A stretch of 64,000 nucleotides of DNA from the human T2T-CHM13v2.0 reference genome, Homo sapiens. Both the position numbers and the translations under genes were made by a program. Position 1 is the first letter of the stretch, and every line of letters begins with the position of its first letter. This document shows positions 1 to 49,843 of this stretch, in pieces. Location: assembly GCF_009914755.1 (NCBI RefSeq), contig NC_060933.1, one strand, 5' to 3'. The notes beneath the pieces are model-generated. The model had not been told where the DNA came from and made no database searches. It was given only the letters and a program-made list of their open reading frames with translations.

Positions 1-3000
1 GTACAATGGAATGGAATGGAATGGAATGGAATGGAATGGAATGGAATGCCTTCAAATCGAATGGAATGGAAAGGAATGTAATCAACACGAGTGGAATGGA
101 ATGGAATGGAATGGAATGGAATGGAATGATACGGAATAGAATGGAATGCAACGAAATGGAATGGAATGGAATGGAATGGAATGGAATGGAATGGAATCGT
201 TCCGAGTGGAATAGGAGGGAATGTATTCGAGTGGAATGGAAAGGAATGGAATCAACCAGAGTGGAATGGAAGGGAATGGAATGGAATGGAATGCAATGGA
301 ATGGAATCAACCCGAGTACAATGGAATGGAATGGAATGGAATGGAATGGAATGGAATGGAATGGAATGGAATGCAATGGAATGGAATCTTCCGGAATGGA
401 ATGGAATGGAATGGAATGGAATGGAATGGAATGGAGTGGAGTGCAATGGATTCAACTCGATTGCAATGGAATGGAATAGAATGGAATGGAATGGAATGGA
501 ATGCAATGGAATTAAACCGAATAGAATGGAATGGAATGGAATGGAATGGAACAGAACGGAACGGAACAGAACGGAGTGGAAAGGAATGGAATGGAATTGT
601 ATGGAATGGAATAGAATGGTACGGAATAGAAAGGAATGGAAAGAATTGGAATGGAATGGAATGGAATGGAATGGAATGGAATGGAATGGAATCAACCCGA
701 GTGCAATGGAATGGAGTGGAATGCAATGGAATGGAATGGAATGGAACAACCCGAATGGAATGGAATGTAATGGAGAGTAAGGGAGTTGAACAGAATCTAT
801 CCGAATGTAATGGAATGGAAAGGAATGGAATGGAATGGAATGGAATGGAATGGAATGGAATGCAATGCAATGGAATGGAATCAACCCGAGTACAAAGGAA
901 CAGAATGTAATGTAATGTAATGGAATGGAATGGAATGGAATGGAATGGAATGGAATCAACCCGAGTGCAATGGAATGGAGAGGAATGGAATGCAATGGAA
1001 TGGAAACTACCCGAATGGAATGGAATGTAATGGAGTGTAAGGGAATTGAATAGAATCAATCCGAATGGAATGGAATGGAATAGAACGGAATGTAATGTAA
1101 TGGAATGGAATGGAATCAACCTGAGTGCAGGGGAATGGAATGGAATGGAATGCAATGGAATGGAATCATCCGGAATGGAATGGAATGGAATGCAATGGAA
1201 TGGAATGGAATGGAATCAACCCGAGTGCAATGGAATGGAGTGAAATGGAATGGAATGGAATGGAGACAACCAGAATGGATTGGAATATAATGGAGTGTAA
1301 GGGAATTGAATAGAATAAATCTGAATGTAATGAAATGGAATGGAACGGAATGGAATGGAATGGAATGGAATGGAATGGAATGCAATGGAATGGAATCAAC
1401 CCGAGGGCAATCGAATGGAATCGAATGGAATGGAATGCAATGGAATGGATTCAACTTGAATGGAATGGAAAGAATGGAATCAACACGAGTGGAATGGCAT
1501 GGATTGGAATGGAATGGAATGGAATCAACCCGAGTATAGGGGAATGGAATGGAATGGAATGCAATGGAATGGAATCATCCGTAATGGAATGGAAAGGAAT
1601 GGAATGGAATGGAATGGAATGGAATCAACTCGATTGCAATCGAATGGAATGGAATGGAATTAACCCGAATAGACAGGAATGGAATGGAATGGAACGGAAC
1701 GGAATGGAATGGAATGGAACGGAAAGGAAGGGAATGGAATGGAATAGAATGGAATGGAATGGAATCAACGCGAGTGCAGGGGAATGGAATGGAATGGAAT
1801 GCAATGGAATGGAATCTTCCGGAATGGAATGGAATGGAATGGAATGGAATGGAATTGAATGGAATCAACCCGAGTGCAATGGAATGAAGTGGAATGGAAT
1901 GGAATGGAATGGAACAACCCGAATGGAATGGAATGTAATGGAGAGTAAGGGAGTTGAATAGAATCAATCCGAATGTAATGGAATGGAATGGAACGGAATG
2001 GAATTGAATGGAATGGAATGGAATGCAATGGAATGGAATCAACCCGAGTGCAATGGAATGGAGAGGAATGGAATGGAATGCAATGGAAACTACCCAAATG
2101 GAATGTAATGGAGTGTAAGGGAATTGAATAGAATCAATCTGAATGTAGTGGAATGGAATGGAACGGAATGGAATGGAATGGAATGGAATGGAATGGAATG
2201 GAATGCAATGGAATGGAATCAACCCGAGTGCAATCAAATGGAATCGAATGGAATGGAATGCAATGGAATGGATTCAACTTGAATGGAATGGAAAGAATGG
2301 AATCAACACGAGTGGAATGGCATGGATTGGAATGGAATGGAATGGAATGGAATGGAATGGAATGGAATGGAATCAACCCGAGTGCAGGGGAATGTAATGG
2401 AACGGAATGCAATGGAATGGAATCATCAGGAATGGAATGGAATGGAATTGAATGGAATGGAATGGAATGGAATCAACCCGAGTGCAATGGAATGGAGTGG
2501 AATGGAATGGAATGGAATGGAACAACGCGAATGGAATGGAATGTAATGGAGAGTTATGGAGTTGAATAGAATCAATCCGAATGTAATGGAATGGAACGGA
2601 ATGGAATGGAATGGAATGAAATGGAATGGAATGGAATGGAATGGAATGCAATGGAATGGAATCAACCCGAGTACAATGGAACGGAATGGAATGGAATGGA
2701 ATGGCATGGAATGCAATGGAATGGAATGGAATGGAATGGAATGGAATCAACCCGAGAGCAATGGAATGGAGAGGAATGGAATGGAATGGAATGGAAACTA
2801 CCCGAATGGAATGGAATGTAATGGAGTGTCAGGGAATTGAGTAGAATCAATCCGAATGGAATGGAATGGAATGGAACGGAATGTAATGGAATGGAATGGA
2901 ATGGAATGGAATCAACACGAGTGCAGGGGAATGGAATGGAAAGGAATGCAATGGAATGGAATCATCCGGAATGGAATGGAATGGAATGCAATGGAATGGA

Positions 3001-6000
3001 ATGGAATGGAATCAACCCGAGTGCAATGGAATGGAGTGAAATGGAATGGAATGGAATGGAAACAACCAGAATGGATTGGAATATAATGGAGTGTAAGGGA
3101 ATTGAATAGAATCGATGTGAATGTAATGAAAGGGAAAGGAACGGAATGGAATGGAATGGAATGGAATGGAATGGAATGGAATGGAATGCAATGGAATGGA
3201 ATCAACCCGAGTGCAATCGAATGGAATCGAATGGAATGGAATGCAATGGAATGGATCCAACTTGAATGGAATGGAAAGAATGGAATCAACACGAGTGGAA
3301 TGGCATGGATTGGAATGGAATGGAATGGAATCAACCCGAGTACAGGGGAATGGAATGGAATGGAATGCAATGGAATGGAATCATCCGTAATGGAATGGAA
3401 AGGAATGGAATGGAATGGAATGGAATGGAATGGAATGGAATCAACTCGATTGCAATCGAATGGAATGGAATGGAATTAACCCGAATAGAATGGAATGGAA
3501 TGGAATGGAACGGAACGGAATGGAATGGAATGGAACGGAACGGAACGGAATTGAATGGAATGGAATGGAATGGAATGGAATAAACGCGAGTGCAGGGGAA
3601 TGGAATGGAATGGAATGCAATGGAATGGAATCTTCCGGAATGGAATGGAATGGAATGGAATGAAATGCAATGGATTCAACTCGATTGCAATGGAATGGAA
3701 TAGAATGGAATGGAATGGAATGGAATGGAATTAACCCGAATAGAATGGAATGGAATGGAACGGAATGGAATGGAATGGAATGGAATGGAATGGAATGGAA
3801 TGGAATGGAATGGTATGAAATGGAATGGAATGGTACGGAATAGAATGGAATGGAACGAATTGTAATGGAATGGAATTGAATAGAATGGAATGGAATGGAA
3901 TGGAATCAACGCGAGTGCAGGGGAATGTAATGGAACGGAATGCAATGGAATGGAATCATCCGGAATGGAATGGAATGGAATGGAATGGAATGGAATGGAA
4001 TGGAATCAACCCGAGTGCAATGGAATGGAGTGGAATGGAATGGAATGGAATGGAACAACCCGAATGGAATGGAATGTAATGGACAGTAAGGGAGTTGAAT
4101 AGAATCAATCTGAATGTAATGGAATGGAATGCAACGGAATGGAATGGAATGGAATGGAATGGAATGCAATGGAATGGAATCAACCCGAGTACAATGGAAT
4201 GGAATGGAATGGAATGGAATGGAATGAAATGGAATGGAATGGAATGGAATGATACGGAAAAGAATGGAATGGAACGAAATGGAATGGAATGGAATGGAAT
4301 GGAATGGAATGGAATCGTTCCGAGTGGAATAGGAGGGAATGTATTCGAGTGGAATGGAAAGGAATAGAATCAACCAGAGTGGAATGGAACGGAATGGAAT
4401 GGAATAGAAACTAATAGAATGAAATCAACCCGAGTGGAATGGAATGGAAAGGACTGGAATGGAATGGAATGGAATGGAATCAACTCAATTGTAATGGAAT
4501 GGAATGGAATGGAATGGAATTAACCTGAATACAATGCAATGGAATGGAATGGAACGGAATGGAGAGGAATGGAATGGAATCAACCCGAGTGCAGGGGAAT
4601 GGAATGGAATGGAAAGCAATGGAATGGAATCATCCGGAATGGAATGGAATGGAATGGAATGCAAAGCAATGGAATCAACTCGATTGCAATGGAATGGAAT
4701 GGAATGGAAAGGAATACATTGGAATCAACCCGAGTGGAATGGAATGGAAAGGACTGGAATGGAGTGGAATGGAATGGAATGCAATGGAATGGAATCAACT
4801 CGATTGGAATGGAATGGAATGGAATTGAATGGAATTAACCCGAATAGAATGCAATGGAATGGAATGGAACGGAACGGAATGGAATGGAATGGAATGGAAT
4901 GGAATGGAATGGAAACAACCCGACTGCAGGGGAATGGAATGGAATGGAATGGAATGCAATGGAATGGATTCAACTTGAATGGAATGGAAAGAATGGAATC
5001 AACACGAGTGGAATGGCATGGATTGGAATGGAATGGAATGGAATCAACCCGAGTACAGGGGAATGGAATGGAATGGAATGCAATGGAATGGAATCATCCG
5101 TAATGGAATGGAAAGGAATGGAATGGAATGGAGTGGAATGGAATGGAATGGAATCAACTCGTTGGCAATCGAATGGAATGGAATGGAATTAACCCGAATA
5201 GAATGGAATGGAATGGAATGGAACGGAACGGAACGGAACGGAACGGAAAGGAATGGAATAGAATGGAATGGAATGGAATGGAATGTAATCAACGCGAATG
5301 CAGGGGAATGGAATGGAATGGAATGCAATGGAATGGAATCTTCCGGAATGGAATGGAATGGAATGGAATGGAATGGAATGGAATAAACCCGAGTGCAATG
5401 GAATGGAGTGGAATGGAATGGAATGGAATGGAACAACCCGAATGGAATGGAATGTAATGGAGAGTAAGGGAGTTGAATAGAATCAATCCGAATGTAATGG
5501 AATGGAATGGAACGGAATGGAATTGAATGGTATGGAATGGAATGCAATGGAATGGAATCAACCCGAGTGCAATGGAATGGAGAGGAATGGAATGGAGTGG
5601 AATGGAAACTACCCGAATGGAATGGAATGAAGTGGAGTGTAAGGGAATTGAATAGAATCAATCCGAATGTAATGGAATGGAATGGAACGGAATGGAATGG
5701 AATGGAATGGAATGGAATGGAATGGAATGGAATGCAATGGAATGGAATCAACCCGAGTGCAATCGAATGGAATCGAATGGAATGGAATGCAATGGAATGG
5801 ATTCAACTTGAATGGAATGGAAAGAATGGAATCAACACGAGTGGAATGGCATGGATTGGAATGGAATGGAATGGAATCAACCCGAGTACAGGGGAATGGA
5901 ATGGAATGGAATGCAATGGAATGGAATCATCCGTAATGGAATGGAAAGGAAAGGAATGGAATGGAATGGAATGGAATGGAATGGAATCAACTCGATTGCA

Positions 6001-6410
6001 ATCGAATGGAATGGAATGGAATTAACCGGAATAGAATGGAATGCAATGGAATGGAACGGAATGGAATGGAATGGAAGGGAATGGAATCAACACGAGTGCA
6101 GGGAAATGGAATGGAATGGAATGCAATGGAATGGAATCATCCGGAATGGAATGGAATGGAATGGAACGGAATGCAATGGAATGGAATCATCCAGAATGGA
6201 ATGGAATGGAATGGAATGGAATCAAACCGAGTGCAATGGAATGGAGTGAAATGGAATGGAATGGAATGGAAACAACCAGAATGGATTGGAATATAATGGA
6301 GTGTAAGGGAATTGAATAGAATCAATCTGAATGTAATGAAATGGAATGGAATGGAATGGAAAGGAATGGAATCGAATGGAATGGAATGGAATGGAATCAA
6401 CCCGAGTGCA
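1..6410 (+). repeat. HSat3 sub-domain, A-type modules (first block)
   Basis: Seen: markers GAGAGTAAGGGAGTTGAA, AAACTACCCGAA, TTCAACTTGAATGGAATGGAAAGAATGG, ATCTTCCGG, and ACAACCAGAATGGATTGGAATATAA (~1266, ~3062, ~6272). Confidence 0.75.
383..397. promoter_or_regulatory. Perfect three-unit heat shock element (representative of ~13 left-arm copies)
   Basis: Seen: GGAATCTTCCGGAAT matches nGAAnnTTCnnGAAn, the established HSF1 trimer consensus. Binding here is not shown. Confidence 0.55.
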
Positions 6411-9400
6411 ATGGAATGGTTTCGAATGGAATGGAATGGAGTGGAATGGATTCAACCCGAATGGAATGGAAAGGAATGGAATCAACCCGAGTGGAATCGC
6501 ATGGAATGCAATGGAATGGAATGGAATGGAATGGAATGGAATGGAATGGAATGGAATCAAGTAGATTGCAATGGAATGGAATGGAATGGAATGGAACGGA
6601 TTGGAATGGAATGGAATGGAATGGAATGGAATTAAATGGAATGGAATGGAATGGAAGAAACCCGAGTGCAGGGGAATGGAATGGAATGGAATGCAATGGA
6701 ATGGAATGGAATGGAATGGAATGGAATGGAATGGAATGGAATGGAATGGAATCAACCCGAGTGGAATGGCATGGAATGGAATGCAATGGAATGGCATGGA
6801 ATGGAATCAACTCGAGTGGAAAGGAATGGAATGGAATGGAATGGAATGGAATGAAATCAACTCGAGTGGAATGGAATGGAACGGAATGGATTGGAATGGA
6901 TTGCAATGGAATGAAATGCAATGGAATGGAATGGCATCAATCATTCCGAGTGGAATGGAACGGAATGTAACGGAGTGGAAAGAAGGGAATGGAATCAACC
7001 CGAGTGGAATGCAAGGCAATGGAATGGAATGGAAAGGAATGGAATGGAATCAACTCAATTGCAATGGAATGGAATGGAATGGAATGGAATGGAACGGAAC
7101 GGAATGGAATGGAATGGAATGGAATGGAATGGAATGGAATGGAATGGAATCAACGCGAATGCAGGGGAATGGAATGGAATGGAATGCAATGGAATGGGAT
7201 CATCCGGAATGGAATGGAATGGAATGGAATGGAATCAACTCGATTTCAATGGAATGGAATGGAATAGACTGGAATGGAATTAACACGAATAGAATGGAAT
7301 GGAATGGAATGGAATGGAATTAAACCGAATAGAATGGAATGGATTGGAATTGAACGGAATGTAACGGAATGGAATGGAATGGAATGGAATGGAATGGTAT
7401 GGAATGGAATGGAATGGAATCATCTCGATTGTAATGGAATGGAATGGAATGGAATGGAGTGCAATGGAATGGAATGGAATGGAATGGAGTGCAATGGAAT
7501 GGAATGGAATGGAATGGAATTAACCCGAATACAATGGAATGGAATGGAATGGAGTGGAATGGAATGGAATCAACCCAAGTGCACAGGAATGGAATGGAAT
7601 GGAATGCAATGGAATGGAATCATCCGGAATGGAATGGAACGGAATGGAATGCAAAACAATTCAATCAACTCGATTGCAATGGAATGGAATGGAATGTATA
7701 TGAATAGAATGGAATCAACCCGAGCGGAATGGAATGGAAAGGACTGGAATGGAGTGGAATGGAATGGAACGGAATGGAATGGAATCAACTCGATTGGAAT
7801 GGAGTGCAATGGAATTTGAATGGAATGGAATGGAATGGAATGGAATGGAATTTACCCGAATAGAATGGAATGGAATGGAAAGGAATGGAACGGAATGGAA
7901 TGGAATGGAATGGAATGGAATGGAATGGAATGGAATGGAATCAACCCGACTGCACGGGAATGGAATGGAATGCAATGCAATGGAATGGAATCATCCGGAA
8001 CGGAATGGAATGGAATGGAATGGAATCAACTCGATTGCAATGGAATGGAATGGAATGGAATGGAATGGAATGGAATGGAATGGAGTGGAATGGAATGGAA
8101 TTAACACGAATAGAATGGAATGGAATGGAATGGAAAGGAATGGAAGGGAATGGAATGGAATGTAATCAACCCGAGTGCAGGGGAATGGAATGGAATTGAA
8201 TGCAATGGAATGGAATCATCCGGAATGCAATGGAATGGAATGGAATGGAATGGAATGGAATCAACTCGATTTCAATGGAATGGAATGTAATAGAATGGAA
8301 TGGAATTAACACGAATAGAATGGAATGGAATGGAATGGAATGGAACGGAAAGGAATGGAATGGAATGGAATGGAATCAACCCAAGTGCAGGGGAATGGAA
8401 TGGAATGTAATTCAATGGAATGGAATCATCCGGAATGGAATGGAATGGAATGGAATGGAACGGAATGGAACGGAATGGAATGGAATGGAATGGAATGGAA
8501 TGGAATGGAATGGAATGGAATGGTATGGAATGGAATGGAATGGAATCAACTCGATTGTAATGGAATGGAATGGAATGGAATGGAATGGAATGGAATTAAC
8601 CCAAATACAATGGAATGGAATGGAATGGAACGGAATGGAGTGGAATGGAATGGAATCAACCCGAGTGCAGGGGAATGGAATGGAATGGAATGCAATGGAA
8701 TGGAATCATCCGGAATGGAATGGAATGGAATGGAATGCAAAACAATGGAATCAACTCGATTGCAATGGAATGGAATGGAATGGAAATGAATAAAATGGAA
8801 TCAACCCGAGTGGAATGGAATGGAAAGGACTGGAATGGAGTGGAATGGAATGGAAAGGAATGGAATGGAATCAACTCGATTGGAATGGAGTGGAATGGAA
8901 TTTGAATGGAATGGAATGGAATGGAGTTGACCTGAATAGAATGGAATGGAATGGAATGGAATGGAACGGAATGGAATGGAATGGAATGGAATGGAATGGA
9001 ATGGAATGGAATGGAATGGAATGGAATGGAATCAACCCGACTGCACGGGAATGGAATGGAATGGAATGCAATGGAATGGAATCATCCGGAATGGAATAGA
9101 ATGGAATGGAATGGAATGGAATGCAATGGAATGGAATCATCCGGAATGGAATAGAATGGAATGGAATGGAATGGAATGGAAACATCCCGAATGGAATGGA
9201 ATGTATTGGAGTGTAAGGGAATTGAATAGAATCAGTCTCAATGTAATGGAAGGGAATGGAATGAAATGGAATGGAATGGAATGCAATGGAATGGAATCAA
9301 ACCGAGTGCAATGGAATGGATTCGAATGGAATGGAATGGAATGGAATGGATTCAACAAGAATGGAATGGAAAGGAATGGAATCAACCCGAGTGTAATGGC

Positions 9401-12400
9401 GTGGAATGGAATGGAATGGAATGGGATGGAATGGAATGGTACGGAATAGAATGGAATGGAATGAAATGGAATGGAATGGAATGGAATGGAATGGAATGGA
9501 ATGGAATGGTATCAACTCGATTGCAATGGAATGGAATGGAATGGAAAGGAATAGAATGGAATCAACCCCACTGGAATGGAATGGAAAGGACTGGAATGGA
9601 CTGGAATGGAATGGAATGGAATGGAATCAAATCGATTGGAATGCAATGGAATGGAATGGAATGGAGTCGAATCAACTAGATTGCAATGGAATGGAATGGA
9701 ACGGAATGGAATGGAATGGAATGGAATGGAATAGAATTTACCCGAATAGAATGGAATGGAATGGAATGGAACGGAATGTAATGGAATGAAATGGAATGGA
9801 ATCAACCCGAGTGCAGGGGAATGGAATGGAATGGAATGTCATGGAATGCAATCATCCGGAATGGAATGGAATGGAATGGAATGGAGTGGAATGGAATGGA
9901 ATGGAATCAACTCGATTGCAATGGAGTGGAATGGAATGGAAAGGAATGGAAGGGAATGGAATGGAATGTAATCAACCCGAGTGCAGGGGAATGGAATGGA
10001 ATGGAATGCAATGGAATGGAATCATCCAGAATGGAATGGAATGGAATGGAATGGAATGCAATCAACCCGATGCAATGGAATGGAGTGGAATGGAATGGAA
10101 TGGAATGGAAACATCCCGAATGGAATGTAATGTAATGGAGTGTAAGGGAATTGAATAGAATAAATCCGAATGTAATGGAATGGAATGGAATGAAATGGAA
10201 TGGAATGGAATGGAATGGAATCAACACGAGTGCAATGGAATGGAATGGAATGGAAAGGAATGGAATGGAATGGATTCAACAAGAATGGAATGGAAAGGAA
10301 TGGAATCAACCCGAGTGTAATGGCATGGAATGGAATGGAATGGAATGGAATGGGATGGAATGGAATGGTACGGAATAGAATGGAATGGAATGAAATGGAA
10401 TGGAATGGAATTTAATGGAATGGAATGGAATGAACCCGTGTGCAATGGAATGGAATGGAATGGAATGGAATGTATTCAACTCGAATGGAATCAACTCGAT
10501 TGCAATGGAAAGGAATGGAATGGAAAGGAATAGAATGGAATCAACCCAAGTGGAATGGAAAGGAAAGGACTGGAATGGAGTGGAATGGAATGGAATGGAA
10601 TGGAATCAAATCGATTGGAATGGAATGGAAAGGAATGGAATGGAATGGAATGGAATGGAATCAACTCGATTGGAATGGAATGGAATGGAATGGAATGGAA
10701 TGGAATTAACCTGAATAGAATGGAATGGAATGGAATGGAACGGAATGTAATGGAATGAAATGGAATGGAATCAATACGAGTGCAGGGGAATGGAATGGAA
10801 TGGAATGCAATGGAATGCAATCATCCGGAATGGAATGGAATGGAATGGAATGGAATGGAATGGAATGGAATGGAATGGAATGGAATCAACTCGATTGCAA
10901 TGGAGTGGAATGGAATGGAAAGGAATGGAAGGGAATGGAATGGAATGTAATCAATCCGAATGCAGGGGAATGGAATGGAATGGAATGCAATGGAATGGAA
11001 TCATCCGGAATGGAATGGATTGGAATGGAATGCAATCAACCCGATGCAATGGAATGGAGTGGAATGGAATGGAATGGAATGGAATGGAAACATCCCGAAT
11101 GGAATGGAATGTAATGGAGTGTAAGGGAATTGAATAGAATCAATCCGAATGTAATGGAATGGAAAGGAATGAAATGGAATGGAATGGAATGGAATGGAAT
11201 CAACCCGAGTGCAATGGAATGGATTCGAATGGAATGGAATGGAATGGAATGGATTCAACAAGAATGGAATGCAAAGGAATGGAATCAACCCGAGTGTAAT
11301 GGCATGGAATGGAATGGAATCGAATGCAATGGGATGGAATGGAATGGAATGGAATGGAATGGGATGGAATGGAATGGTACGGAATAGAATGGAATGGAAT
11401 GAAATGGAATGGAATGGAATTTAATGGAATGGAATGGAATGAACCCGTGTGCAATGTAATAGAATGAAATGGAATGGAATGGATTCAACTCGAATGGAAT
11501 CAACTCGATTGCAATGGAATGGATTGGAATGGAAAGGAATAGAATGGAATCAACCAGAGTGGAATGGAATGCAAAGGACTGGAATGGAGTGGAATGGAAT
11601 GGAATGGAATGGAATGGAATCAACTCGATTGGAATGGAATGGAATGGAATGGAATGGAATTAACCAGAATACAATGGAATGGAATGGAATGGAATGGAAT
11701 GGAACGGAACGGAATGGAGTGGAATGGAATGGAATGGAATGGAATCAACCCGACTGCACGGGAATGGAATGGAATGGAATGCAATGGAATGGAATCATCC
11801 GGAACGGAATGGAATGGAATGGAATGGAATCAACTCGATTGCAATGGAATGGAATGAAATGGAATGGAATGGAATGGAATGGAGTTGAATGGAATGGAAT
11901 TAACCCGAATAGAATGGAATGGAATGGAATGGTAAGGAATGGAAGGGAATGGAATGGAATATAATCAACCCGAGTGCAGGGGAATGGAATGGAATTGAAT
12001 GCAATGGAACGGAATCATACGGAATGGAATGGAATGGAATGGAATGGAATGGAATGATCCCGATGCAATGGAATGGAATGGAATGGAATGGAATGGAATG
12101 GAATGGAATGGAAACATCCCGAATGGAATGGAATGTAATGGAGTGTAAGGCAATTGAATAGAATCAGTCCGAATGAAATGGAAGGGAATGGAATGAAATG
12201 GAATGGAATGGAATGGAATCGATCAAACCGAGTGCAATGGAATGGATTCGAATGGAATGGAATGGATTCGAATATAATGGAATGGAATGGAATGGATTCA
12301 ACAAGAATGGAATGGAAAGGAATGGAATCAACCCGAGTGTAATGGCATGGAATGGAATGGAATGGAACGGGATGGAATGGAATGGTACGGAATAGAATGG

Positions 12401-13975
12401 AATGGAATGAAATGGAATGGAATGGAATGGAATGGAATGGAATGGAATGAACCCGTGTGCAATGGAATGGAATGGAATGGAATGGAATGGATTCAACTCG
12501 AAAGGAATCAACTCGATTGCAATGGAATGGAATGGAATGGAAAGGAATAGACTGGAATCAACCCGAGTGGAATGGAATGGAAAGGACTGGAATGGAGTGG
12601 AATGGAATGGAATGGAATGGAATCAAATCGATTGGAATGGAATGGAATGGAATGGAATGGAATGGAATCAACTCGATTGCAATGGAATGGAATGGAATGG
12701 AATTTTAATGGAATGGAATGGAATTAACTCGAATAGAATGGAATGGAATGGAATGGAACGGAATGTAATGGAATGAAATGGAATGGAATCAACCCGAGTG
12801 CAGGGGAATGGAATGGAATGGAATGCAATGGAATGCAATCATCCGGAATGGAATGGAATGGAATGGAATGGAATGGAATGGAATGGAATCAACTCGATTG
12901 CAATGGAGTGGAATGGAATGGAAACGAATGGAAGGGAATGGAATGGAATTTAATCAACCCGAGTGCAGGGGAATGGAATGGAATGGAATGCAATGGAATG
13001 GAATCATCCGGAATGGAATGGAATGGAATGGAATGCAATCAACCCAATGCAATGGAATGGAGTGGAATGGAATGGAATGGAATGGAATGGAAACATCCCG
13101 AATGGAATGGAATGTAATGGAGTGTAAGGGAATTGAATAGAATCAATCCGAATGTAATGGAATGGAATGGAATGAAATGGAATGGAGTGGAATGGAATGG
13201 AATCAACCCGAGTGCAATGGAATGGATTCGAATGGAATGGAATGGAATGGAATGGATTCAACAAGAATGGAATGGAAAGGAATGGAATCAACCCGAGTGT
13301 AATGGCATGGAATGGAATGGAATGGAATGGAATGGGATGGAATGGAATGGTACGGAATAGAATGGAATGGAATGGAATGGAATGAAATGGAGTGGAATGG
13401 AATTTAATGGAATGGAATGGAATGAACCTGTGTGCAATGTAATGGAATGGAATGGAATGGAATGGATTCAACTCGAATGGAATCAACCCGATTGCAATGG
13501 AATGGAATGGAATGGAAAGGAATAGAAAGGAATAAACCCGAGTGGAATGGAATGGAAAAGACTGGAATGGAGTGGAATGGAATGGAATGGAATTAACCCG
13601 AATAGAATGGAATGGAACGGAATGGAACGGAATGGAATGGAATGGAATGGAATGGATTCAACCCGAGTGCAGGGGAATGGAATGGAATGGAATGCAATGG
13701 AATGGAATCATCCGGAATGGAATGGAATTGAATGGAATGGAATGGAATGCAATGGAATCAACTCGATTTCAATGGAATGGAATGGAATAGAATGGAATGG
13801 AATTAACACGAATAGAATGGAATGGAATTGAATGGAATGGAATGGAACGGAAAGGAATGGAATGGAATGGAATGGAATCAACCCAAGTGCAGGGGAATGG
13901 AATGGAATGGAATTCAATGGAATGGAATCATCCGGAATGGAATAGAATGGAATGGAATGGAATGGAATGGAATGG
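6411..13975 (+). repeat. HSat3 sub-domain, B-type modules with ~1 kb periodicity
   Basis: Seen: AAACATCCCGAA at ~9180, 10109, 11088, 12112, 13090; TTCAACAAGAA at ~9351, 10275, 11254, 12297, 13257; GAACCCGTGTGCA-type at ~10432, 11441, 12449, 13424. The A markers listed for 1-6410 were not seen here. Confidence 0.8.
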
Positions 13976-28413: not shown

Positions 28414-28443
28414 GGAACGGAACGGAACGGAACGGAACGGAAC
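28414..28443 (+). repeat. (GGAAC)6 variant pentamer run
   Basis: Seen: six tandem GGAAC just downstream of a TAACCCGAATAG module. Similar (GGAAC)5 runs lie at 5220-5244 and 14823-14847. Confidence 0.85.
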
Positions 28444-29683: not shown

Positions 29684-29728
29684 GAATGCAATGGAATGGA
29701 ATCAACCCGAGTGCATTCCATTGCATTC
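29684..29728. other. Strand-inversion breakpoint with 15-bp perfect inverted repeat and 15-nt loop
   Basis: Seen: GAATGCAATGGAATG (29684-29698), then GAATCAACCCGAGTG (29699-29713), then CATTCCATTGCATTC (29714-29728). The palindromic TGCA at 29712-29715 can be read as part of either arm. Confidence 0.93.
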
Positions 29729-38489: not shown

Positions 38490-38670
38490 CCATTCCATTC
38501 CATTCCACTCCATTCCATTGCACTCGGGTTGATTCCATTCCATTCCATTCCATTCCATTCCATTCCACTCCATTCCTTTGCACTCGGGTTGATTCCATAC
38601 CATTCCATTCCCTTCCATTCCATTCCACTCCATTCCTTTGCACTCGGGTTGATTCCATTCCATTCCATTC
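38490..38670 (-). repeat. Three tandem copies of a 60-bp unit
   Basis: Seen: CACTCGGGTTGATT at 38521, 38581 and 38641, each preceded by CCACTCCATTCC(A/T)TTG. Confidence 0.85.
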
Positions 38671-41600
38671 CATTCCATTCCATTCCATTCCATTCCGGAT
38701 GATTCCATTCCATTGCATTCCGTTCCATTACATTCCCCTGCACTCGCATTGATTCCATTCCATTCCATTCAATTCTGTTCCATTACAATTCGTTCCATTC
38801 CATTCTATTCCGTACCATTCTATTCCTTTCCATACCATTCCATTCCATTCCATTCCATTCCATTCCGTTCCATTCCGTTCCATTCCATTCCATTCCATTC
38901 TACTCGGATTAATTTCATTCCATTCCATTCCATTCCATTCCATTCCATTCTATTCCATTCCATTGCAATCGAGTTGAATCCATTGCATTCCATTCCATTC
39001 CATTCCATTCCATTCCATTCCGGAAGATTCCATTCCATTGCATTCCATTCCATTCCATTCCCCTGCACTCGCGTTGATTCCATTCCATTCCATTCCATTC
39101 CATTTCATTCCATTCCATTCCGTTCCGTTCCATTCCATTCCATTCCATTCCATTCTATTCGGGTTAATTCCATTCCATTCCATTCGATTGCAATCGAGTT
39201 GATTCCATTCCATTCCATTCCATTCCATTCCTTTCCATTCCATTACGGATGATTCCATTCCATTGCATTCCATTCCTTTCCATTCCCCTGTACTCGGGTT
39301 GATTCCATTGCATTCCATTCCAATCCATGCCATTCCACTCGTGTTGATTCCATTCTTTCCATTCCATTCAAGTTGAATCCATTCCATTGCATTCCATTCC
39401 ATTCCATTCCTCTGCAGTCGGGTTGATTCCATTCCCTTCCATTCCATTCCATTGCATTCCATTCCAATCGAATTGATTCCATTCCATTCCATTCCATTCC
39501 ATTCCATTCCACTCCATTCCAGTCTTTTCCATTCCATTCCACTCGGGTTGATTCCAATGTATTCCTTTCCATTCCATTCCATTCCATTGCATTCCGTTCC
39601 ATTACATTCCCCTGCACTCGCTTTGATTCCATTCCATTCCATTCCATTCCATTCAATTCCATTCCATTACAATTCGTTCCATTCCATTCTATTCCGTACC
39701 ATTCCATTCCATTCCATTCCAATCGAGTTGATTCCTTTCCATTCCATTCCATTCCATTCCACTCCATTCCAGTCCTTTCCATTCCATTCCACTCGGGGTG
39801 ATTCCAATGTATTCCTTTCCATTCCATTCCATTCCATTGCAATCGAGTTGATTCCATTGCTTTGCATTCCATTCCATTCCATTCCATTCCGGATGATTCC
39901 ATTCCATTGCATTCCATTCCATTCCATTCCCCTGCACTCGGGTTGATTCCATTCCATTCCACTCCATTCCGTTCCATTCCATTCCATTCCATTGTATTCG
40001 GGTTAATTCCACTCCATTCCATTCCATTCCATTCCATTCCATTCCATTACAATCGAGTTGATTCCATTCCATTCCATTCCATTCCAGTCCTTTCCATTCC
40101 ATTCCACTCGGGTTGATTCCATTCTATTAGTTTCCATTCCATTCCATTCCCTTCCATTCCACTCTGGTTGCTACAATTCCTTTCCATTCCACTCGAATAC
40201 ATTCCCTCCTATTCCACTCGGAACGATTCCATTCCATTCCATTCCATTCCATTCCATTCCATTCCATTCCATTTCGTTCCATTCCATTCTATTCAGTATC
40301 ATTCCATTCCATTCCATTCCATTCCATTCCATTCCATTCCATTCCATTGTACTCGGGTTGATTCAATTCCATTGCATTCCATTCCATTCCATTCCATTCC
40401 ATTCCATTCCATTCCATTCCATTCCATTACAATTCGTTCCATTCCATTCTATTCGGTACCATTCCATTCCATTCCATACCATTCCATTCCATTCCATTCC
40501 ATTCCATTCCGTTCCATTCCGTTCCATTGCATTCCATTCCATTCTATTCGGATTAATTCCATTCCATTCCATTCCATTCCATTCCATTCCATTCCGATCC
40601 ATTCCGTTCTGTTCCATTCCATTCCATTACATTCCATTCAATTCCATTCCATTCTGTTCCGTTCCATTCCATTCCATTCCATTCTATTCGGGTTAATTCC
40701 ATTCCATTCCATTCGATTGCAATCGAGTTGATTCCATTCCATTCCATTGCTTTCCATTCCATTACGGATGATTCCATTCCATTGCATTCCATTCCATTCC
40801 ATTCCCCTGTACTCGGGTTGATTCCATTCCATTCCAATCCAATCCATGCCATTCCACTCGTGTTGATTCCATTCTTTCCATTCCATTCAAGTTGAATCCA
40901 TTCCATTGCATTCCATTCCATTCGATTCCATTCGATTGCACTCGGGTTGATTCCATTCCATTACATTCCATTGCATTCCATTCCATTCCATTCCATTCCG
41001 TTCCATTCCATTCCATTACATTCGGATTGATTCTATTCAATTCCCTTACACTCCATTACATTCCATTCCATTTGGGTAGTTTCCATTCCATTCCATTCCA
41101 TTCCTCTCCATTCCATTGCACTTGGGTTGATTCGATTCCATTGCATTCCATTCCATTCCATTCAATTCCATTCCGTTCCATTCCATTCCATTACATTCGG
41201 ATTGATTCTATTCAACTCCCTTACTCTCCATTACATTCCATTCCATTCGGGTTGTTCTATTCCATTCCATTCCATTCCACTCCATTCCATTGCACTCGGG
41301 TTGATTCCATTCCATTCCATTCCAATCCATGCCATTCCACTCGTGTTGATTCCATTCTTTCCATTCCATTCAAGTTGAATCCATTCCATTGCATTCCATT
41401 GCATTCCATTCCCCTGCAGTCGGGTTGTTTCCATTCCATTCCATTGCATTCCATTCCATTCCATTCCATTCCGTACCGTTCCGTTCCATTCCATTCCATT
41501 CCATTCTATTCGGGTTAATTCCATTTCATTCCATTCCATTCCATTCCATTCCATTACAATTCGTTCCATTCCATTCTATTCCGTACCATTCCATTCCATT

Positions 41601-42059
41601 CCATTCCAATCGAGTTGATTCCTTTCCATTCCATTCCATTCCATTCCACTACATTCCAGTCCTTTCCATTCCATTCCACTCGGGGTGATTCCAATGTATT
41701 CCTTTCCATTCCATTCCATTCCAATGCAATCGAGTTGATTCCATTGCTTTGCATTCCATTCCATTCCATTCCATTCCGGATGATTCCATTCCATTGCATT
41801 CCATTCCATTCCATTCCCCTGCACTCGGGTTGATTCCATTCCATTCCACTCCATTCCGTACCATTCCATTCCATTCCATTCCATTGTGTTCGGGTTAATT
41901 CCATTCCATTCCATTCCATTCCATTCCATTCCATTGCAATCGAGTTGATTCCATTCCATTTCATTCCATTCCATTCCATTACATTCCATTCCAATCGAGT
42001 TGATTCCATTCCATTTCATTCCATTCCATTCCATTCCATTCCATTCCATTCCATTCCAT

Positions 42060-45000
42060 TCCTTTCCATTCCATTCCACTCGGGTTGATTCCATTCTATT
42101 AGTTTCCATTCCATTCCATTCTCTTCCATTCCACTCTGGGTGATTCCATTCCTTTCCATTCCACTCGAATACATTCCCTCCTATTCTACTCGGAACGATT
42201 CCATTCCATTCAATTCCATTCCATTCCATTCCATTCCATTTCATTCCATTCCATTCTGTTCCGTATCATTCTATTCCATTCCATTCCATTCCCTTCCATT
42301 CCATTCCATTACATTCCACTCGTGTTGATTCCATTCCTTTCCATTCCATTCGGTTTGAAGGCATTCCATTCCATTCCATTCCATTCCATTCCATTCCATT
42401 GTACTCGGGTTGATTCCATTCCATTGCATTCCATTCCATTCCAATCCGTTGCATTCCATTCCATTACATTCGGATTGATTCTATTCAACTCCCTTACTCT
42501 CCATTACATTCCATTCCATTCTGGTTGTTCCATTCCATTCCATTCCATTCCACTCCATTCCATTGCACTCGGGTTGATTCCATTCCATTCCATTCCATTC
42601 CATTCCATTCCGGATGATTCCGTTCCATTGCATTCCGTTCCATTACATTCCCCTGCACTCGCGTTGATTCCATTCCATTCCATTCCATTCCATTCCATTC
42701 AATTCCATTCCATTACAATTCGTTCCATTCCATTCTATTCCGTAGCATTCCATTCCATTCCATACCATTCCATTCCATTCCATTCCATTCCATTCCATTC
42801 CGTTCCGTTCCATTCCGTTCCATTCCATTCCATTCCATTCTATTCGGGTTAATTCCATTCCATTCCATTCCAATCTATTCCATTCCATTGCAATCGGGTT
42901 GAATCCATTGCATTTCAATCCATTCCATTCCATTCCATTCCATTCCATTGCAATCGAGTTGAATCCATTGCATTTCATTCCATTCCATTCCATTCCATTC
43001 CATTCCGGAAGATTCCATTCCACTGCATTCCATTCCATTCCATTCCCCTGCACTCGCGTTGATTCCATTCCATTCCATTCCATTCCATTCCGTTCCGTTC
43101 CGTTCCATTTCATTCCATTCCTTTCCATTCCATTCAGTTCCGTTCCATTCCATTCCATTCCATTCTATTCGGGTTAATTCCATTCCATTCCATTCGAATG
43201 CAATCGAGATGTTTCCATTCCATTCCATTCCATTCCGTTCCGGATGATTCCATTCTATTGCATTCCATTCCATTCCATTCCCCTGCAGTCGGGTTGATTC
43301 CATTCCATTCCATTCCATTCCATTCCATTCCATTCCATTCCATTCCATTCCGTTCCATTCCATTCCATTCCATTCTATTCGGGTTAATTCCATTCCATTC
43401 CTTTCCATTCCATTCCATTCCATTCCAATCGAGTTGATTCCATTCCATTCCATTCCATTCCATTCCACTCCATTCCAGTCCTTTCCATTCCATTCCACTC
43501 GGGTTGATTCCATTCTATTCCTTTCCATTCCATTCCATTCCATTGCAATCGAGTTGATTCCATTGCTTTGCATTCTATTCCATTCCATTCCATTCCGGAT
43601 GATTCCATTCCATTGCATTCCATTCCATTCCATTCCCCTGCACTCGGGTTGATTCCATTCCATTCCACTGCATTCCGTTCCATTCTAGTCCATTCCATTG
43701 TATTCGGGTTAATTCCATTCCATTCCATTCCATTCCATTCCATTCCATTCCATTCCATTACAATGTAGTTGATTCCATTCCATTCCATTCCATTGCATTC
43801 CATTCCATTCCAGTCCTTTCCATTCCATTCCACTCGGGTTGATTCCATTCTATTAGTTTCCATTCCATTCCATTCCCTTCCATTCCAATCTGGTTGATTC
43901 CATTCCTTTCCATTCCACTCGAATACATTCCCTCCTATTCCACTCAGAACGATTCCATTCCATTCCATTCCATTCCATTCCATTCCATTCCATTCCATTC
44001 CAATTCGTTCCATTCCATTCTAATCCGTACCATTCTATTCCATTCCATTCCTTTCCATTCCATTCCATTCCACTCGTGGTGATTCCATTCCTTTCCATTC
44101 CATTCGGTTTGAAGGCATTCCATTCCATTCCATTCCATTCCATTCCATTCCATTCCATTCCATTCCATTGTACTCGAGTTGATTCCATTCCATTGCATTC
44201 AATTCCATTCCATTCCATTCCATTGTACTCGAGTTGATTCCATTCCATTGCATTCCATTCCATTCCATTCCATTCCATTCCGTTGCATTCTATTCCATTA
44301 CATACGGATTGATTCTATTCAACTCCCTTACTCTCCATTACATTCCATTCCATTCGGGTTGTTCCATTCCATTCCATTCCATTCCACTCCATTCCATTGC
44401 ACTCGGGTTGATTCCATTCCATTCCATTCCATTCCATTCCATTCCGGATGATTCCATTCCATTGCATTCCGTTCCATTACATTCCCCTGCACTCGCGTTG
44501 ATTCCATTCCATTCCATTCCATTCCATTCAATGCCATTCCATTGCAATTCGTTCCATTCCATTCTATTCCGTACCATTCCATTCCATTCCATACCATTCC
44601 ATTCCATTCCATTCCATTCCGTTCCATTGTGTTCCTTTCCATTCCATTCCATTCTATTCGGATTAATTCCATTCCATTCCATTCCATTCCATTCTATTCC
44701 ATTCCATTGCAATCGAGTTGAATCCATTGCATTTCATTCCATTCCATTCCATTCCATTCCATTCCATTCCGGAAGATTCCATTCCATTGCATTCCATTCC
44801 ATTCCATTCCCCTGCACTCGCGTTGATTCCATTCCATTCCATTCCATTCCATTCCATTCCGTTCCGTTCAATTCCATTCCATTCCATTCCATTCCATTCC
44901 ATTCCATTCCCTTCCGTTCCGTTCCATTCCATTCCATTCCATTCTATTCGGGTTAATTCCTTTCCATTCCATTCGATTGCAATCGAGTTGATTCCATTCC

Positions 45001-48000
45001 ATTCCATTCCATTCCTTTCCATTCCATTACGGATGATTCCATTCCATTGCATTCCATTCCATTCCATTTCCCTGTACTCGGGTTGATTCCATTCCATTCC
45101 ATTCCAATCCATACTATTCCACTCGTGTTGATTCCATTCTTTCCATTCCATTCAAGTTGAATCCATTCCATTGCATTCCATTCCATTTGATTCCATTCGA
45201 TTGCACTCGGGTTGATTCCATTACAATGCATTCCATTCCATTCCATTCCATTCCATTCCATTCCATTCCATTCCGTTCCATTCCATTCCATTACATTCGG
45301 ATTGATTCTATTCAATTCCCTTACACTCCATTACATTCCATTCCATTCGGGTAGTTTCCATTCCATTCCATCCATTCCTCTCCATTCCATTGCACTCGGG
45401 TTGATTCCATTCCATTGCATTCCATTCCATTCCATTCCATTCAATTCCGTTCCATTCCATTCCATTACATTCGGATTGATTCTATTCAACTCCCTTACTC
45501 TCCATTACATTCCATTCCATTCGGGTTGTTCCATTCCATTCCATTCCATTCCACTCCATTCCACTGCACTCGGGTTGATTCCATTCCATTCCATTCCATT
45601 CCATTCCATTCCATTCCGGAAGATTCCATTCCATTGCATTCCATTCCATTCCATTCCCCTCCACTCGCGTTGATTCCATTCCATTCCATTCTATTCCATT
45701 CCATTCCCTTCCTTTCCGTTCCATTCCATTCCATTCCATTCCATTCCGTTCCGTTCCGTTCCATTCCATTCCATTCCATTCTATTTGGGTTAATTCCATT
45801 CCATTCCATTCGATTGCAATCGAGTTGATTCTATTCCATTCCATTCCATTCCATTCCATTCCATTCCATTCCATTCCGGAAGATTCCATTCCATTGCATT
45901 CCATTCCATTCCATTCCCCTGTACTCGGGTTGACTCCATTCCATTCCATTCCAATCCATGCCATTCCATTCGTGTTGATTCCATTCTTTCCATTCCATTC
46001 AAGTTGAATCCATTCCATTGCATTCTATTCCATTCCATTCCCCTGCAGTCTGGTTGATTCCATTCCATTCCATTCCATTCCATTCCATTCCAGTCCTTTC
46101 CATTCCATTCCACTCGGGTTGATTCCATTCTATTAGTTTCCATTCCATTCCATTCTCTTCCATTCCACTCTGGGTGATTCCATTCCTTTCCATTCCACTC
46201 GAATACATTCCCTCCTATTCTACTCGGAACGATTCCATTCCATTCCATTCCATTCCATTCCATTCCATTCCATTTCGTTCCATTCCATTCTGTTCCGTAT
46301 CATTCCATTCCATTCCATTCCATTCCATTCCCTTCCATTCCATTCCATTACATTCCACTCGTGTTGATTCCATTCCTTTCCATTCCATTCGTTTTGAAGG
46401 CATTCCATTCCATTCCATTCCATTCCATTCCATTCCATTCCATTGTACTCGGGTTGATTCCATTCCATTGCATTCCATTCCATTCCAATCCGTTGCATTC
46501 CATTCCATTACATTCGGATTGATTCTATTCAACTCCCTTACTCTCCATTACATTCCGTTCCATTCTGGTTGTTCCATTCCATTCCATTCCATTCCACTCC
46601 ATTCCATTGCACTCGGGTTGATTCCATTCCTTTCCATTCCATTCCATTCCATTCCGGATGATTCCGTTCCATTGCATTCCGTTCCATTACATTCCCCTGC
46701 ACTCGCGTTGATTCCATTCCATTCCATTCCATTCCATTCCATTCAATTCCATTCCATTACAATTCGTTCCATTCCATTCTATTCCGTAGCATTCCATTCC
46801 ATTCCATACCATTCCATTCCATTCCATTCCATTCCGTTCCGTTCCATTCCGTTCCATTCCATTCCATTCCATTCCCTTCTATTCGGGTTAATTCCATTCC
46901 ATTCCATTCCTATCTATTCCATTCCATTGCAATCGGGTTGAATCCATTGCATTTCAATCCATTCCATTCCATTCCATTCCATTCCATTGCAATCGAGTTG
47001 AATCCATTGCATTTCATTCCATTCCATTCCATTCCATTCCATTCCGGAAGATTCCATTCCATTGCATTCCATTCCATTCCATTCCCCTGCACTCGCGTTG
47101 ATTCCATTCCATTCCATTCCATTCCATTCCGTTCCGTTCCGTTCCATTTCATTCCATTCCTTTCCATTCCATTCAGTTCCATTCCATTCCATTCCATTCC
47201 ATTCTATTCGGGTTAATTCCATTCCATTCTATTCGAATGCAATCGAGTTGATTCCATTCCATTCCATTCCATTCCGTTCCGGATGATTCCATTCTATTGC
47301 ATTCCATTCCATTCCATTCCCCTGCAGTCGGGTTGATTCCATTCCATTCCATTCCATTCCATTCCATTCCATTCCATTCCATTCCGTTCCATTCCATTCC
47401 ATTCCATTCTATTCGGGTTAATTCCATTCCATTCCTTTCCATTCCATTCCATTCCATTCCAATCGAGTTGATTCCATTCCATTCCATTCCATTCCATTCC
47501 ACTCCATTCCAGTCCTTTCCATTCCATTCCACTCGGGTTGATTCCATTCTATTCCTTTCCATTCCATTCCATTCCATTGCAATCGAGTTGATTCCATTGC
47601 TTTGCATTCTATTCCATTCCATTCCATTCCGGATGATTCCATTCCATTGCATTCCATTCCATTCCATTCCCCTGCACTCGGGTTGATTCCATTCCATTCC
47701 ACTCCATTCCGTTCCATTCTAGTCCATTCCATTGTATTCGGGTTAATTCCATTCCATTCCATTCCATTCCATTCCATTCCATTACAATGTAGTTGATTCC
47801 ATTCCATTCCATTCCATTCCATTCCATTCCAGTCCTTTCCATTCCGTTCCACTCGGGTTGATTCCATTCTATTAGTTTCCATTCCATTCCATTCCCTTCC
47901 ATTCCAATCTGGTTGATTCCATTCCTTTCCATTCCACTCGAATACATTCCCTCCTGTTCCACTCAGAACGATTCCATTCCATTCCATTCCATTCCATTCC

Positions 48001-48620
48001 ATTCCATTCCATTCCAGTTCGTTCCATTCCATTCTATTCCGTAGCATTCTATTCCATTCCATTCCTTTCCATTCCATTCCATTCCACTCGTGGTGATTCC
48101 ATTCCTTTCCATTCCATTCGGTTTGAAGGCATTCCATTCCATTCCATTCCATTCCATTCCATTCCATTCCATTCCACTCGTGTTGATTCCATTCCTTTCC
48201 ATTCCATTCGGTTTGAAGGCATTCCATTCCATTCCATTCCATTCCATTGTACTCGGGTTGATTCCATTCCATTGCATTCCATCCCATTCCATTCCGTTCC
48301 AATCCGTTGCATTCCATTCCATTACATTCGGATTGATTCTATTCAACTCCCTTACTCTCCATTACATTCCATTCCATTCGGGTTGTTCCATTCCATTCCA
48401 TTCCATTCCACTCCATTCCATGGCACTCGGGTTGATTCCATTCCTTTCCATTCCATTCCATTCCATTCCGGATGATTCCATTCCATTGCATTCCGTTCCA
48501 TTATTTTCCCCTGCACTCGCGTTGATTCCATTCCATTCCATTCCATTCCATTCCATTCCATTCAATTCCATTCCATTACAATTCGTTCCATTCCATTCTA
48601 TTCCGTACCATTCCATTCCA
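42060..48620 (-). repeat. Direct duplication, ~42060-44600 vs ~46090-48620 (offset ~4.03 kb)
   Basis: Seen: shared rare variants ACTCTGGGTGATT, CCGTAGCATT, CTAGTCCATT (~43685/47719), ACAATGTAGTTG (~43760/47784) and ACTCAGAACG (~43942/47961). ORF pairs are offset 4034-4044. Confidence 0.85.
47041..47055. promoter_or_regulatory. Perfect three-unit heat shock element (representative of ~14 right-arm copies)
   Basis: Seen: ATTCCGGAAGATTCC matches nTTCnnGAAnnTTCn. Binding here is not shown. Confidence 0.55.
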
Positions 48621-49843
48621 TTCCATACCATTCAATTCTTTCCATTCCATTCCATTCCATTCCATTCCATTCCATTTCGTTCCATTCCGTTCCATTCCAA
48701 TCCATTCCATTCTATTCGGGTTAATTCCATTCCATTCCATTCCATTCCATTCCATTCCATTCCATTCCAATCTATTCCATTCCATTGCAATCGAGTTGAA
48801 TCCATTGCATTTCATTCCATTCCATTCCATTCCATTCCATTGCAATCGAGTTGAATCCATTGCATTTCATTCCATTCCATTCCATTCCATTCCATTCCGG
48901 AAGATTCCATTCCATTGCATTCCATTCCATTCCATTCCCCTGCACTCGAGTTGATTCCATTCCATTCCATTCCATTCCATTCCATTCCGTTCCGTTCCGT
49001 TCCGTTCCATTTCATTCCATTCCATTCCATTCCATTCCGTTCCGTTCCATTCCATTCCATTCCATTCCATTCCATTCCATTTCCTTCCATTCCATTCCAT
49101 TCCATTCCATTCCATTCCATACCATTCCATTCCATTCCATTTCCTTCCATTCCATTCCATTCCATTCCATTCCATTCCATTCCATTCCATTCTATTAGGG
49201 TTAATTCCATTCCATTCCATTCCATTCCATTCCATTCCATGCCATTCCACTCGGGTTGATTCCATTCCTTTCCATTCCATTCGAGTTGAATCCATTCCAT
49301 TCCATTCTATTCCATTCCATTCCTTTCCATTCCATTCAATTCCATTCTATTCCGGTTAATTCCATTCCATTCCATTCCATTCCATTCCATTCCATTTCAT
49401 TGCAATCGAGTTGATTCCATTGCATTCCATTCCATTCCATTCCAGTCCTTTCCATTCCATTCCACTCGGGTTGATTCCATTCTATTCCTTTCCATTCCAT
49501 TCGATTGCATTCCATTCCACTCGATTCCATTCCATCCCACTATGGTTGATTCCATTCCTTTTCATTCCACTCGAAAACATTCCCTTCTATTCCACTCGGA
49601 ATGATTCCATTCCATTCCATTCCATTCCATTCCATTTCGTTCCATTACATTCTATTCTGTACCATTCCACTCCATTCCCTTCCATTCCATTCCATTCCAT
49701 TGCACTCGGGTTGATTCCATTCCATTCCATTGCGTTCCATTCCGGATGACTCCATTCCATTGCATTCCATTCCATTCCATTCCCCTGCACTCGGTTTCAT
49801 TACATTCCATTCCATTCACTTCCATTCCATTCCATTCTATTCC

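What the first reader, a model, noticed from the sequence alone, without database searches (positions are those of the whole stretch)
383..48908. About 27 perfect heat shock elements made by one spacer variant, confined to A-type domains
Seen (manual count): GGAA(T/A)CTTC(C/T)GGAAT, matching nGAAnnTTCnnGAAn, starts at 383, 1811, 3627, 5335, 17118, 18953, 19766, 20634, 21833, 22701, 23574, 25211 and 28569. Its reverse complement starts at 30654, 32351, 33655, 34015, 35194, 36577, 37615, 39017, 43002, 44766, 45613, 45873, 47041 and 48894. None was seen in ~5.4-17.1 kb or after 48.9 kb, where the one-base-different CATCCGG form occurs. The variants AACTTCTGG and ATCTTCTGG change only n positions; one copy (~27150) is broken. 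Established: plain (GGAAT)n gives only head-to-tail nGAAn units, whereas HSF1 prefers alternating units. Inference: this single-base variant could set which HSat3 sub-domains nucleate HSF1.
Basis: partly seen in the sequence, partly recalled or inferred. Interest (0 to 1): 0.7.

Follow-up and report, generated by a model that had tools for sequence, protein, structure and literature searches.

The report
Single-base heat-shock sites on chromosome 9
One changed base in a repeat of the giant chromosome 9 satellite creates about 14,000 perfect heat-shock-factor sites; these are likely why this satellite and the Y satellite (which has its own sites), rather than the other satellite arrays sampled, are the main places where nuclear stress bodies start.

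Summary
All 27 canonical heat shock elements (HSEs) lie at the stated coordinates, 22 of them as GGAATCTTCCGGAAT, and all 27 fall in one sequence type of the chr9 HSat3B5 array. It is not a local oddity. The family has 14,277 matches genome-wide, nearly all in the 9q12 array at about 0.5 per kb. It looks like one derived sub-lineage of the CATCC spacer that was amplified. The Yq12 satellite carries about 14,100 HSEs of three unrelated sequences. Seven of seven samples from other HSat2/3 arrays that were not centred on a hit had none. So the two known primary stress-body loci are the two HSE-rich arrays. Already in print: HSF1 binding to 9q12, HSF1 motifs in HSat3 sub-regions that track ChIP signal, and HSEs on Yq12. 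I did not find the base-level identity or the census in print. Binding of this exact 15-mer is inferred, not shown, and selection is not shown. Interest is moderate.

The parts
383..397 (+). 3-unit HSE, GGAATCTTCCGGAAT
1811..1825 (+). 3-unit HSE, main form
3627..3641 (+). 3-unit HSE, main form
5335..5349 (+). 3-unit HSE, main form
17118..17132 (+). 3-unit HSE, main form
18953..18967 (+). 3-unit HSE, GGAAACTTCTGGAAT form
19766..19780 (+). 3-unit HSE, main form
20634..20648 (+). 3-unit HSE, GGAAACTTCTGGAAT form
21833..21847 (+). 3-unit HSE, main form
22701..22715 (+). 3-unit HSE, main form
23574..23588 (+). 3-unit HSE, CpG-to-TG form
25211..25225 (+). 3-unit HSE, main form; the one copy without an in-register GAA two units downstream
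27150..27164 (+). broken copy (third unit GAT)
28569..28583 (+). 3-unit HSE, main form
29703..29736 (.). inversion junction: (GGAAT)n on + switches to (ATTCC)n at about 29,715
30654..30668 (-). 3-unit HSE, main form
32351..32365 (-). 3-unit HSE, main form
33655..33669 (-). 3-unit HSE, main form
34015..34029 (-). 3-unit HSE, main form
35194..35208 (-). 3-unit HSE, CpG-to-CA form
36577..36591 (-). 3-unit HSE, main form
37615..37629 (-). 3-unit HSE, CpG-to-CA form
39017..39031 (-). 3-unit HSE, main form
43002..43016 (-). 3-unit HSE, main form
44766..44780 (-). 3-unit HSE, main form
45613..45627 (-). 3-unit HSE, main form
45873..45887 (-). 3-unit HSE, main form
47041..47055 (-). 3-unit HSE, main form
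48894..48908 (-). 3-unit HSE, main form
1..6000 (+). A-type HSat3B5 block, 4 HSEs
   Evidence: 8-mer PC1 with CATC/CTTC masked
6001..14000 (+). B-type block, 0 HSEs
14001..49000 (.). A-type block spanning the inversion, 23 HSEs
49001..64000 (-). B-type block, 0 HSEs

Best explanation
The sites are copies of one CTTCC spacer variant that turns a head-to-tail GGAAT run into a canonical three-unit heat shock element, present about 14,000 times in the chromosome 9 satellite, and these are likely the high-affinity HSF1 sites that seed the 9q12 nuclear stress body. Shown: sequence, register, count, confinement to chr9 and A-type blocks. Inferred origin: an A-to-T change in a CATCC spacer of the CAACGCGA-marked module, spread by array amplification, inversion and a multi-megabase duplication. 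Inferred action: a stress-activated HSF1 trimer binds GAA-TTC-GAA; an in-register GAA two units downstream (26 of 27 copies) and the surrounding step-type GGAAT run add weaker sites; about 0.5 sites per kb over 27 Mb concentrate HSF1 enough to condense and recruit Pol II. Yq12 reached a similar count with three unrelated HSE sequences, which would explain why 9q12 and Yq12 are the primary loci and HSE-poor arrays are only secondary.
For: Exact match to nGAAnnTTCnnGAAn with G before each GAA and a C-G step in the tail-to-tail spacer; both features are favoured in HSF1/2 trimer structures and ChIP motifs (PMC8379338 section 11). Census: 12,700 exact 15-mers, none on chr1-8; 14,277 family matches, 63 on chr1-8; two rare derived variants 18 of 18 and 50 of 50 on chr9; sampled density 4.9 per 10 kb extrapolates to about 13,000 plus or minus 2,300 for chr9 alone. 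chrY: 4,777 of 4,780 and 9,307 of 9,342 matches of its own HSEs. Other arrays: 0 HSEs in 7 of 7 samples not centred on a hit (22.8 kb; chr15 x3, chr20, chr5, chr1, chr16); chr1 pericentromere at background level. Literature: HSF1 binds 9q12 DNA directly and needs its DNA-binding and trimerisation domains (PMC2173303); 9q12 and Yq12 are the primary targets (PMC7889540); HSF1 ChIP follows motif density in HSat3 (bioRxiv 2024.10.22.616524).
Against: No binding measurement for this 15-mer was found. HSF1 also shifts the pHuR98 probe, whose nGAAn units the authors call non-canonical, at about 4-fold more protein (over 12.5 ng against over 3 ng). An HSF1 DBD structure on head-to-tail SatIII DNA exists (cited in PMC8379338). 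Secondary stress bodies form on other SatII/III arrays, and most of 13-19 SatIII loci, mainly acrocentric, are reported to be transcribed under stress (highlight PMC12500981). HT1080 cells form bodies on Y only although 9q12 is present. Arrays other than chr9 and Y were sampled thinly, and chr10-X cannot be excluded directly. CATCC differs by one base, is commoner (20,563), also sits almost wholly on chr9 among chr1-9, and may bind moderately.
Confidence: 0.7

Rival explanations
1. HSF1 is recruited mainly by avidity on the bulk head-to-tail GGAAT repeats and near-matches such as CATCC; CTTCC copies add little. Chr9 wins because it is the largest and purest array.
For: pHuR98 binds HSF1 despite non-canonical organisation; an HSF1 structure on head-to-tail SatIII exists; plain (GGAAT)n fits the step-type HSE layout, described as functional but weak (PMC4552642); CATCC is also chr9-enriched; chr9 samples have about 110-115 GGAAT per kb against about 70 on chr15 and Y.
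Against: Yq12 has no more GGAAT per kb than chr15 (67 against 71) yet is a primary target, and it carries HSEs while the chr15 samples carry none; ChIP signal is reported to follow motif-dense sub-regions rather than being even; HSF1 is said to prefer canonical HSEs.
Confidence: 0.17
2. Chromatin state, methylation or SatIII RNA feedback, not site sequence, decides which array or sub-domain nucleates HSF1.
For: HT1080 cells use Y and not chr9 unless HSF1 is overexpressed; many SatIII loci are transcribed under stress; 22 of 27 sites carry a CpG in the spacer.
Against: Recombinant HSF1 picks chr9 on protein-stripped, even protease-treated, metaphase spreads, which points to DNA sequence.
Confidence: 0.13
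3. On origin (a separate question from binding): the variant is a neutral passenger of satellite amplification, and the stress body is a by-product.
For: CTTC copies are one homogeneous sub-lineage, 86 of 130 with upstream CAACGCGA against 42 of 390 CATC copies. Within 130 CTTC copies, core and non-CpG spacer positions vary alike (7 of 910 against 7 of 520, p=0.40).
Against: Genome-wide, a spacer T has 580 variant copies against 35 for a core T, but most of the 580 are one T-to-A sub-lineage and no CATCC control was run. Two unrelated arrays each reached about 14,000 HSEs.
Confidence: 0.65

Closest known systems
HSF1 nuclear stress bodies on 9q12 satellite III / HSat3B5 (PMC2173303; review PMC9032817)
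   Same: Same locus and factor; direct DNA binding that needs the DBD and trimerisation domains. The review mentions putative HSEs at 9q12 as an unpublished observation.
   Different: The 2002 paper judged its probe's nGAAn units non-canonical, and the review says the number of sites is unknown. Here the site is named to the base and counted (about 14,100).
HSF1 motif sub-regions in HSat3 (bioRxiv 10.1101/2024.10.22.616524, Fig. 2b)
   Same: HSF1 motifs are uneven within HSat3 arrays and ChIP-seq follows their density.
   Different: The text read does not name the variant, its CATCC origin or a chr9/chrY census. Figures and supplements were not seen and may hold per-array enrichment.
Canonical HSEs in DYZ1, Yq12 (PMC7889540)
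   Same: Four perfect HSEs per 3,564-bp unit, and Yq12 is a primary HSF1 target. I find 2 and 3 per 3.6-kb sample.
   Different: The Y HSEs are three other sequences, so the two arrays did not share the site. The authors asked whether Yq12 has more HSEs than 9q12; in this assembly the totals are about equal (14,084 against about 14,150).
Canonical three-site HSE of HSP promoters (PMC8379338)
   Same: Three contiguous alternating nGAAn units, purine before each GAA, pyrimidine-purine step in the tail-to-tail spacer.
   Different: Only three units (one trimer), embedded in GGAAT runs, CpG in the spacer, about 14,000 dispersed copies in heterochromatin, no annotated gene nearby.

Membership tests
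Canonical (3P) heat shock element | Three contiguous inverted nGAAn units, GAA/TTC/GAA at 5-bp register | tested here: met
   27 of 27 sites
Canonical (3P) heat shock element | Purine before GAA; pyrimidine-purine step between TTC and GAA | tested here: met
   All 27 have G before the first GAA and a CG, TG or CA step; criterion from PMC8379338
Canonical (3P) heat shock element | Four or more contiguous units for cooperative multi-trimer binding (criterion recalled) | tested here: not met
   No site matches both GAAnnTTCnnGAA and an overlapping TTCnnGAAnnTTC; only a gap-type extension, in 26 of 27. Not required for membership.
Canonical (3P) heat shock element | Bound by HSF1 trimer in vitro and in vivo | not testable with these tools
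   Indirect only: ChIP follows motif density in HSat3; no data found for this 15-mer
Canonical (3P) heat shock element | Confers heat-inducible transcription | not testable with these tools
   The chr9 array is upregulated along its length after heat shock (PMC11622622); not tied to these sites
HSat3B5 (chr9 pericentromeric satellite) | (GGAAT)n-derived array in the large chr9 block with many inversions | tested here: met
   Period-5 arrays across the window; position chr9:57.04-57.10 Mb inside the hSat3_9_3(B5) region; inversion at about 29,715; many breakpoints reported
HSat3B5 (chr9 pericentromeric satellite) | Subfamily k-mer classification | not tested
   The published k-mer sets were not available; assignment rests on location

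The most novel reading that the evidence does not exclude
Primary nuclear stress body sites arose twice by convergence: one A-to-T change in HSat3B5 and three other changes in DYZ1 each gave about 14,000 perfect HSEs, together about 37% of all three-unit HSEs in this assembly. CTTCC copy number, which should vary between people and apes, would then be a heritable dial on how much HSF1 is sequestered in stress. CpG methylation in the spacer would mimic the preferred thymine and let HSF1 bind methylated heterochromatin.
Probability: 0.3. Interest if true: 0.75.

Novelty: new member of a known kind. Interest (0 to 1): 0.52.

Why it matters
Why HSF1 picks 9q12 among many GGAAT arrays has been open since 2002, when the probe tested looked non-canonical; a 2022 review says the number of sites is unknown. 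A named 15-mer and its one-base control (CATCC, same context, same array) make the question testable with existing ChIP or CUT&RUN reads by k-mer counting, without mapping. The chr9 family is about 19% of all three-unit HSEs in this assembly, or about 23% without the Y set, so it could act as a sizeable HSF1 sink. The counts also bear on a question raised in PMC7889540: Yq12 does not have clearly more HSEs than 9q12 here, but has them denser per repeat unit.

Tried and rejected
Hairpin or cruciform at the TTCCGGAA palindrome: a 60-nt strand folds no better than shuffles (z 0.26); rejected. Mirror-image duplication across the inversion: shared 60-mers show no single anti-diagonal; rejected. Purifying selection on the core: local test null (p=0.40); genome-wide T comparison 35 against 580 is dominated by one sub-lineage and lacks a CATCC control; inconclusive. 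My first selection count mixed in the CAACC and CTACC spacer families and was redone. Four of 18 small genome samples missed the satellite because the coordinates were recalled (L029, L035, L040, L042); three (chr10, 14, 22) were centred on a known hit, hold one HSE each, and are not used as unbiased samples. A full-text search for the 10-mers returned only unrelated listings; a search on CpG methylation and HSF1 binding gave nothing relevant. The 2016 HSF1-SatIII structure paper was not held, so its affinities are unseen. Earlier scan findings were not available.

Full report
The observation. The window is HSat3 from end to end: two period-5 arrays meeting at an inversion near 29,715. Spacing is irregular, median about 1.4 kb, with one 11.8-kb gap. 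Markov nulls of order 2 to 5 give 0.75 to 10.8 sites. With CATC/CTTC masked, the first 8-mer principal component splits the window into A blocks (1-6 kb, 14-49 kb) and B blocks (6-14 kb, 49-64 kb) and correlates with HSE count (rho -0.55). None of the 27 sites is in B, against 30 of 66 CATC sites. These p-values overstate the case because copies are related and the boundaries were read by eye.

What it is. The CTTC spacer is one base from the commoner CATC spacer and sits in the same module. In 244 kb of chr9 sequence (window plus 18 samples) there are 130 CTTC and 390 CATC copies. An upstream CAACGCGA marker precedes 86 of 130 CTTC copies but 42 of 390 CATC copies, whose main marker is CAACCCGA (216); 36 and 107 copies had no marker called. 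CTTC copies are also less diverged. The simplest reading (inference) is one A-to-T change in the CAACGCGA sub-lineage, then amplification. Seven of the 130 have a broken core, so variation is not limited to n positions.

Genome census (T2T-CHM13v2.0 with a Y). The exact 15-mer occurs 12,700 times, split evenly by strand, none on chr1-8, first at chr9:49.756 Mb. The wider family gives 14,277, with 63 on chr1-8. Only the first 100 places are listed, so chr10-Y could not be read directly. Three indirect checks agree. All 18 of 18 10-kb samples from 50.0 to 75.5 Mb hold 2-9 exact copies, mean 4.9, which extrapolates to about 13,000 plus or minus 2,300 for chr9 alone; the two other samples of that call, at 48.5 and 49.2 Mb, hold none. 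Two rare derived variants, listed in full, lie 18 of 18 and 50 of 50 on chr9, though many are paired by an internal duplication. No exact copy was seen in the 12 satellite samples from other chromosomes. All three-unit HSEs number 76,189 against 43,994 for the reversed control, so the chr9 family is about 19% of them.

Other arrays. Two DYZ1 samples carry 2 and 3 HSEs per 3.6 kb, of three other sequences; 4,777 of 4,780 and 9,307 of 9,342 genome matches are on Y. Seven samples of other HSat2/3 arrays not centred on a hit (chr15 three times, chr20, chr5, chr1, chr16; 22.8 kb) have none; three samples centred on a known hit (chr10, 14, 22) have one each; four samples missed the satellite. A budget check: the satellite-context pattern has 31,880 matches, with a background of about 0.6 per Mb on chr1, including only 7 between 120 and 147 Mb. 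Subtracting chr9, Y and background leaves roughly 1,800, about 500 of them on the minus strand, where the three chr15 samples lie (my arithmetic; the patterns are not exact subsets). The two arrays rich in canonical HSEs are the two reported primary stress-body loci (PMC7889540, passages).

How it most likely works. An HSF trimer binds three alternating nGAAn units; a purine before GAA and a pyrimidine-purine step between TTC and GAA are preferred, and thymine methyls in TTC are contacted (PMC8379338, passages and section 11). The chr9 site meets these; CATCC loses one TTC thymine. In 26 of 27 copies a GAA lies in register two units downstream, the gap-type layout, and plain GGAAT runs fit the weak step-type layout (PMC4552642, passages). 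I infer that HSF1 binds CTTCC first, spreads onto weaker neighbours, and at 0.5 sites per kb over 27.6 Mb (array size) condenses and recruits Pol II. Twenty-two of 27 sites have a CpG in the spacer. Its decay to TG or CA keeps the HSE; such forms add 744 matches to the 12,700, some of them background. That 5-methyl-C would mimic the thymine usual at this place is my inference; no data were found.

Against. HSF1 shifts pHuR98, described as non-canonical, at about four times more protein than a consensus HSE (PMC2173303, parts 1-2 of 4 read, figure not seen). A DBD structure on head-to-tail SatIII exists (known only through; the paper was not held). Secondary bodies form on other arrays, HT1080 cells use Y only, and a highlight of a 2025 Cell paper says most SatIII loci are transcribed (PMC12500981, passages; the Cell paper was not read). 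So the sites can explain primacy, not exclusivity. Selection is not shown.

What is known. HSF1 binding to 9q12 dates from 2002. A 2022 review mentions putative 9q12 HSEs as unpublished and says the number is unknown (PMC9032817, passages); a 2023 review speaks of scattered HSE-like sequences (PMC10505914, passages). A preprint shows HSF1 motifs in HSat3 sub-regions with matching ChIP signal (bioRxiv 2024.10.22.616524, passages and section 5); its figures and supplements were not seen and may already give per-array values. Passages of five further papers (PMC13634412, PMC13340490, PMC13705371, PMC11622622, PMC12918812) gave no base-level map. Searches found no paper naming the CTTCC variant; most subscription papers are outside the library.

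Verdict. A real feature and a new member of a known kind. The general claim is in print; the named base, its likely single origin, the chr9/chrY census and the built-in one-base control were not found in print and make the mechanism cheaply testable. Interest 0.52.

Noticed in passing
G000:C9 about 54.6-61.3 Mb versus 65.2-72.0 Mb; L047 (C9:67,684,001-67,693,000) versus window 27,913-36,936: Rare-variant hits pair on the same strand at an offset of about 10.6 Mb, showing a multi-megabase direct duplication inside the chr9 HSat3 array. The twin has the same inversion junction and all 7 HSEs of that stretch in order. A large chr9 HSat3 duplication is recalled from the T2T literature, not checked.
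   Followed up: partly
window 29,703-29,736: Clean inversion junction inside an A-type block, with no insertion; the two sides are not mirror copies. Over 200 such breakpoints are reported for chr9 HSat3B5 and beta satellite arrays together.
   Followed up: partly
G000:C9 48.7-49.75 Mb (L009, L010, L046): The proximal edge of the array lacks the exact 15-mer but has a few GGAAACTTCC-type HSEs, possibly an older layer.
   Followed up: no
G000:C5 49.72-49.91 Mb: Six CTTC-type HSEs with CCG or CAG spacers cluster in a chr5 HSat3 region; a 3-kb sample there shares the CAACCCGAGT module. A related or independent small HSE set.
   Followed up: partly
G000:C10:42.50 Mb, C14:5.44 Mb, C22:8.02 Mb, C1:128.6 Mb: Single HSEs of a DYZ1-like sequence occur in autosomal satellite arrays; they may seed secondary stress bodies.
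   Followed up: partly
window 49,001-64,000: The B block is marked by GAACCCGTG, GATTCAACCC and GGCAT words and lacks the A-type module almost wholly; a chr20 HSat3 sample shows a similar CAACCCGTG word.
   Followed up: no
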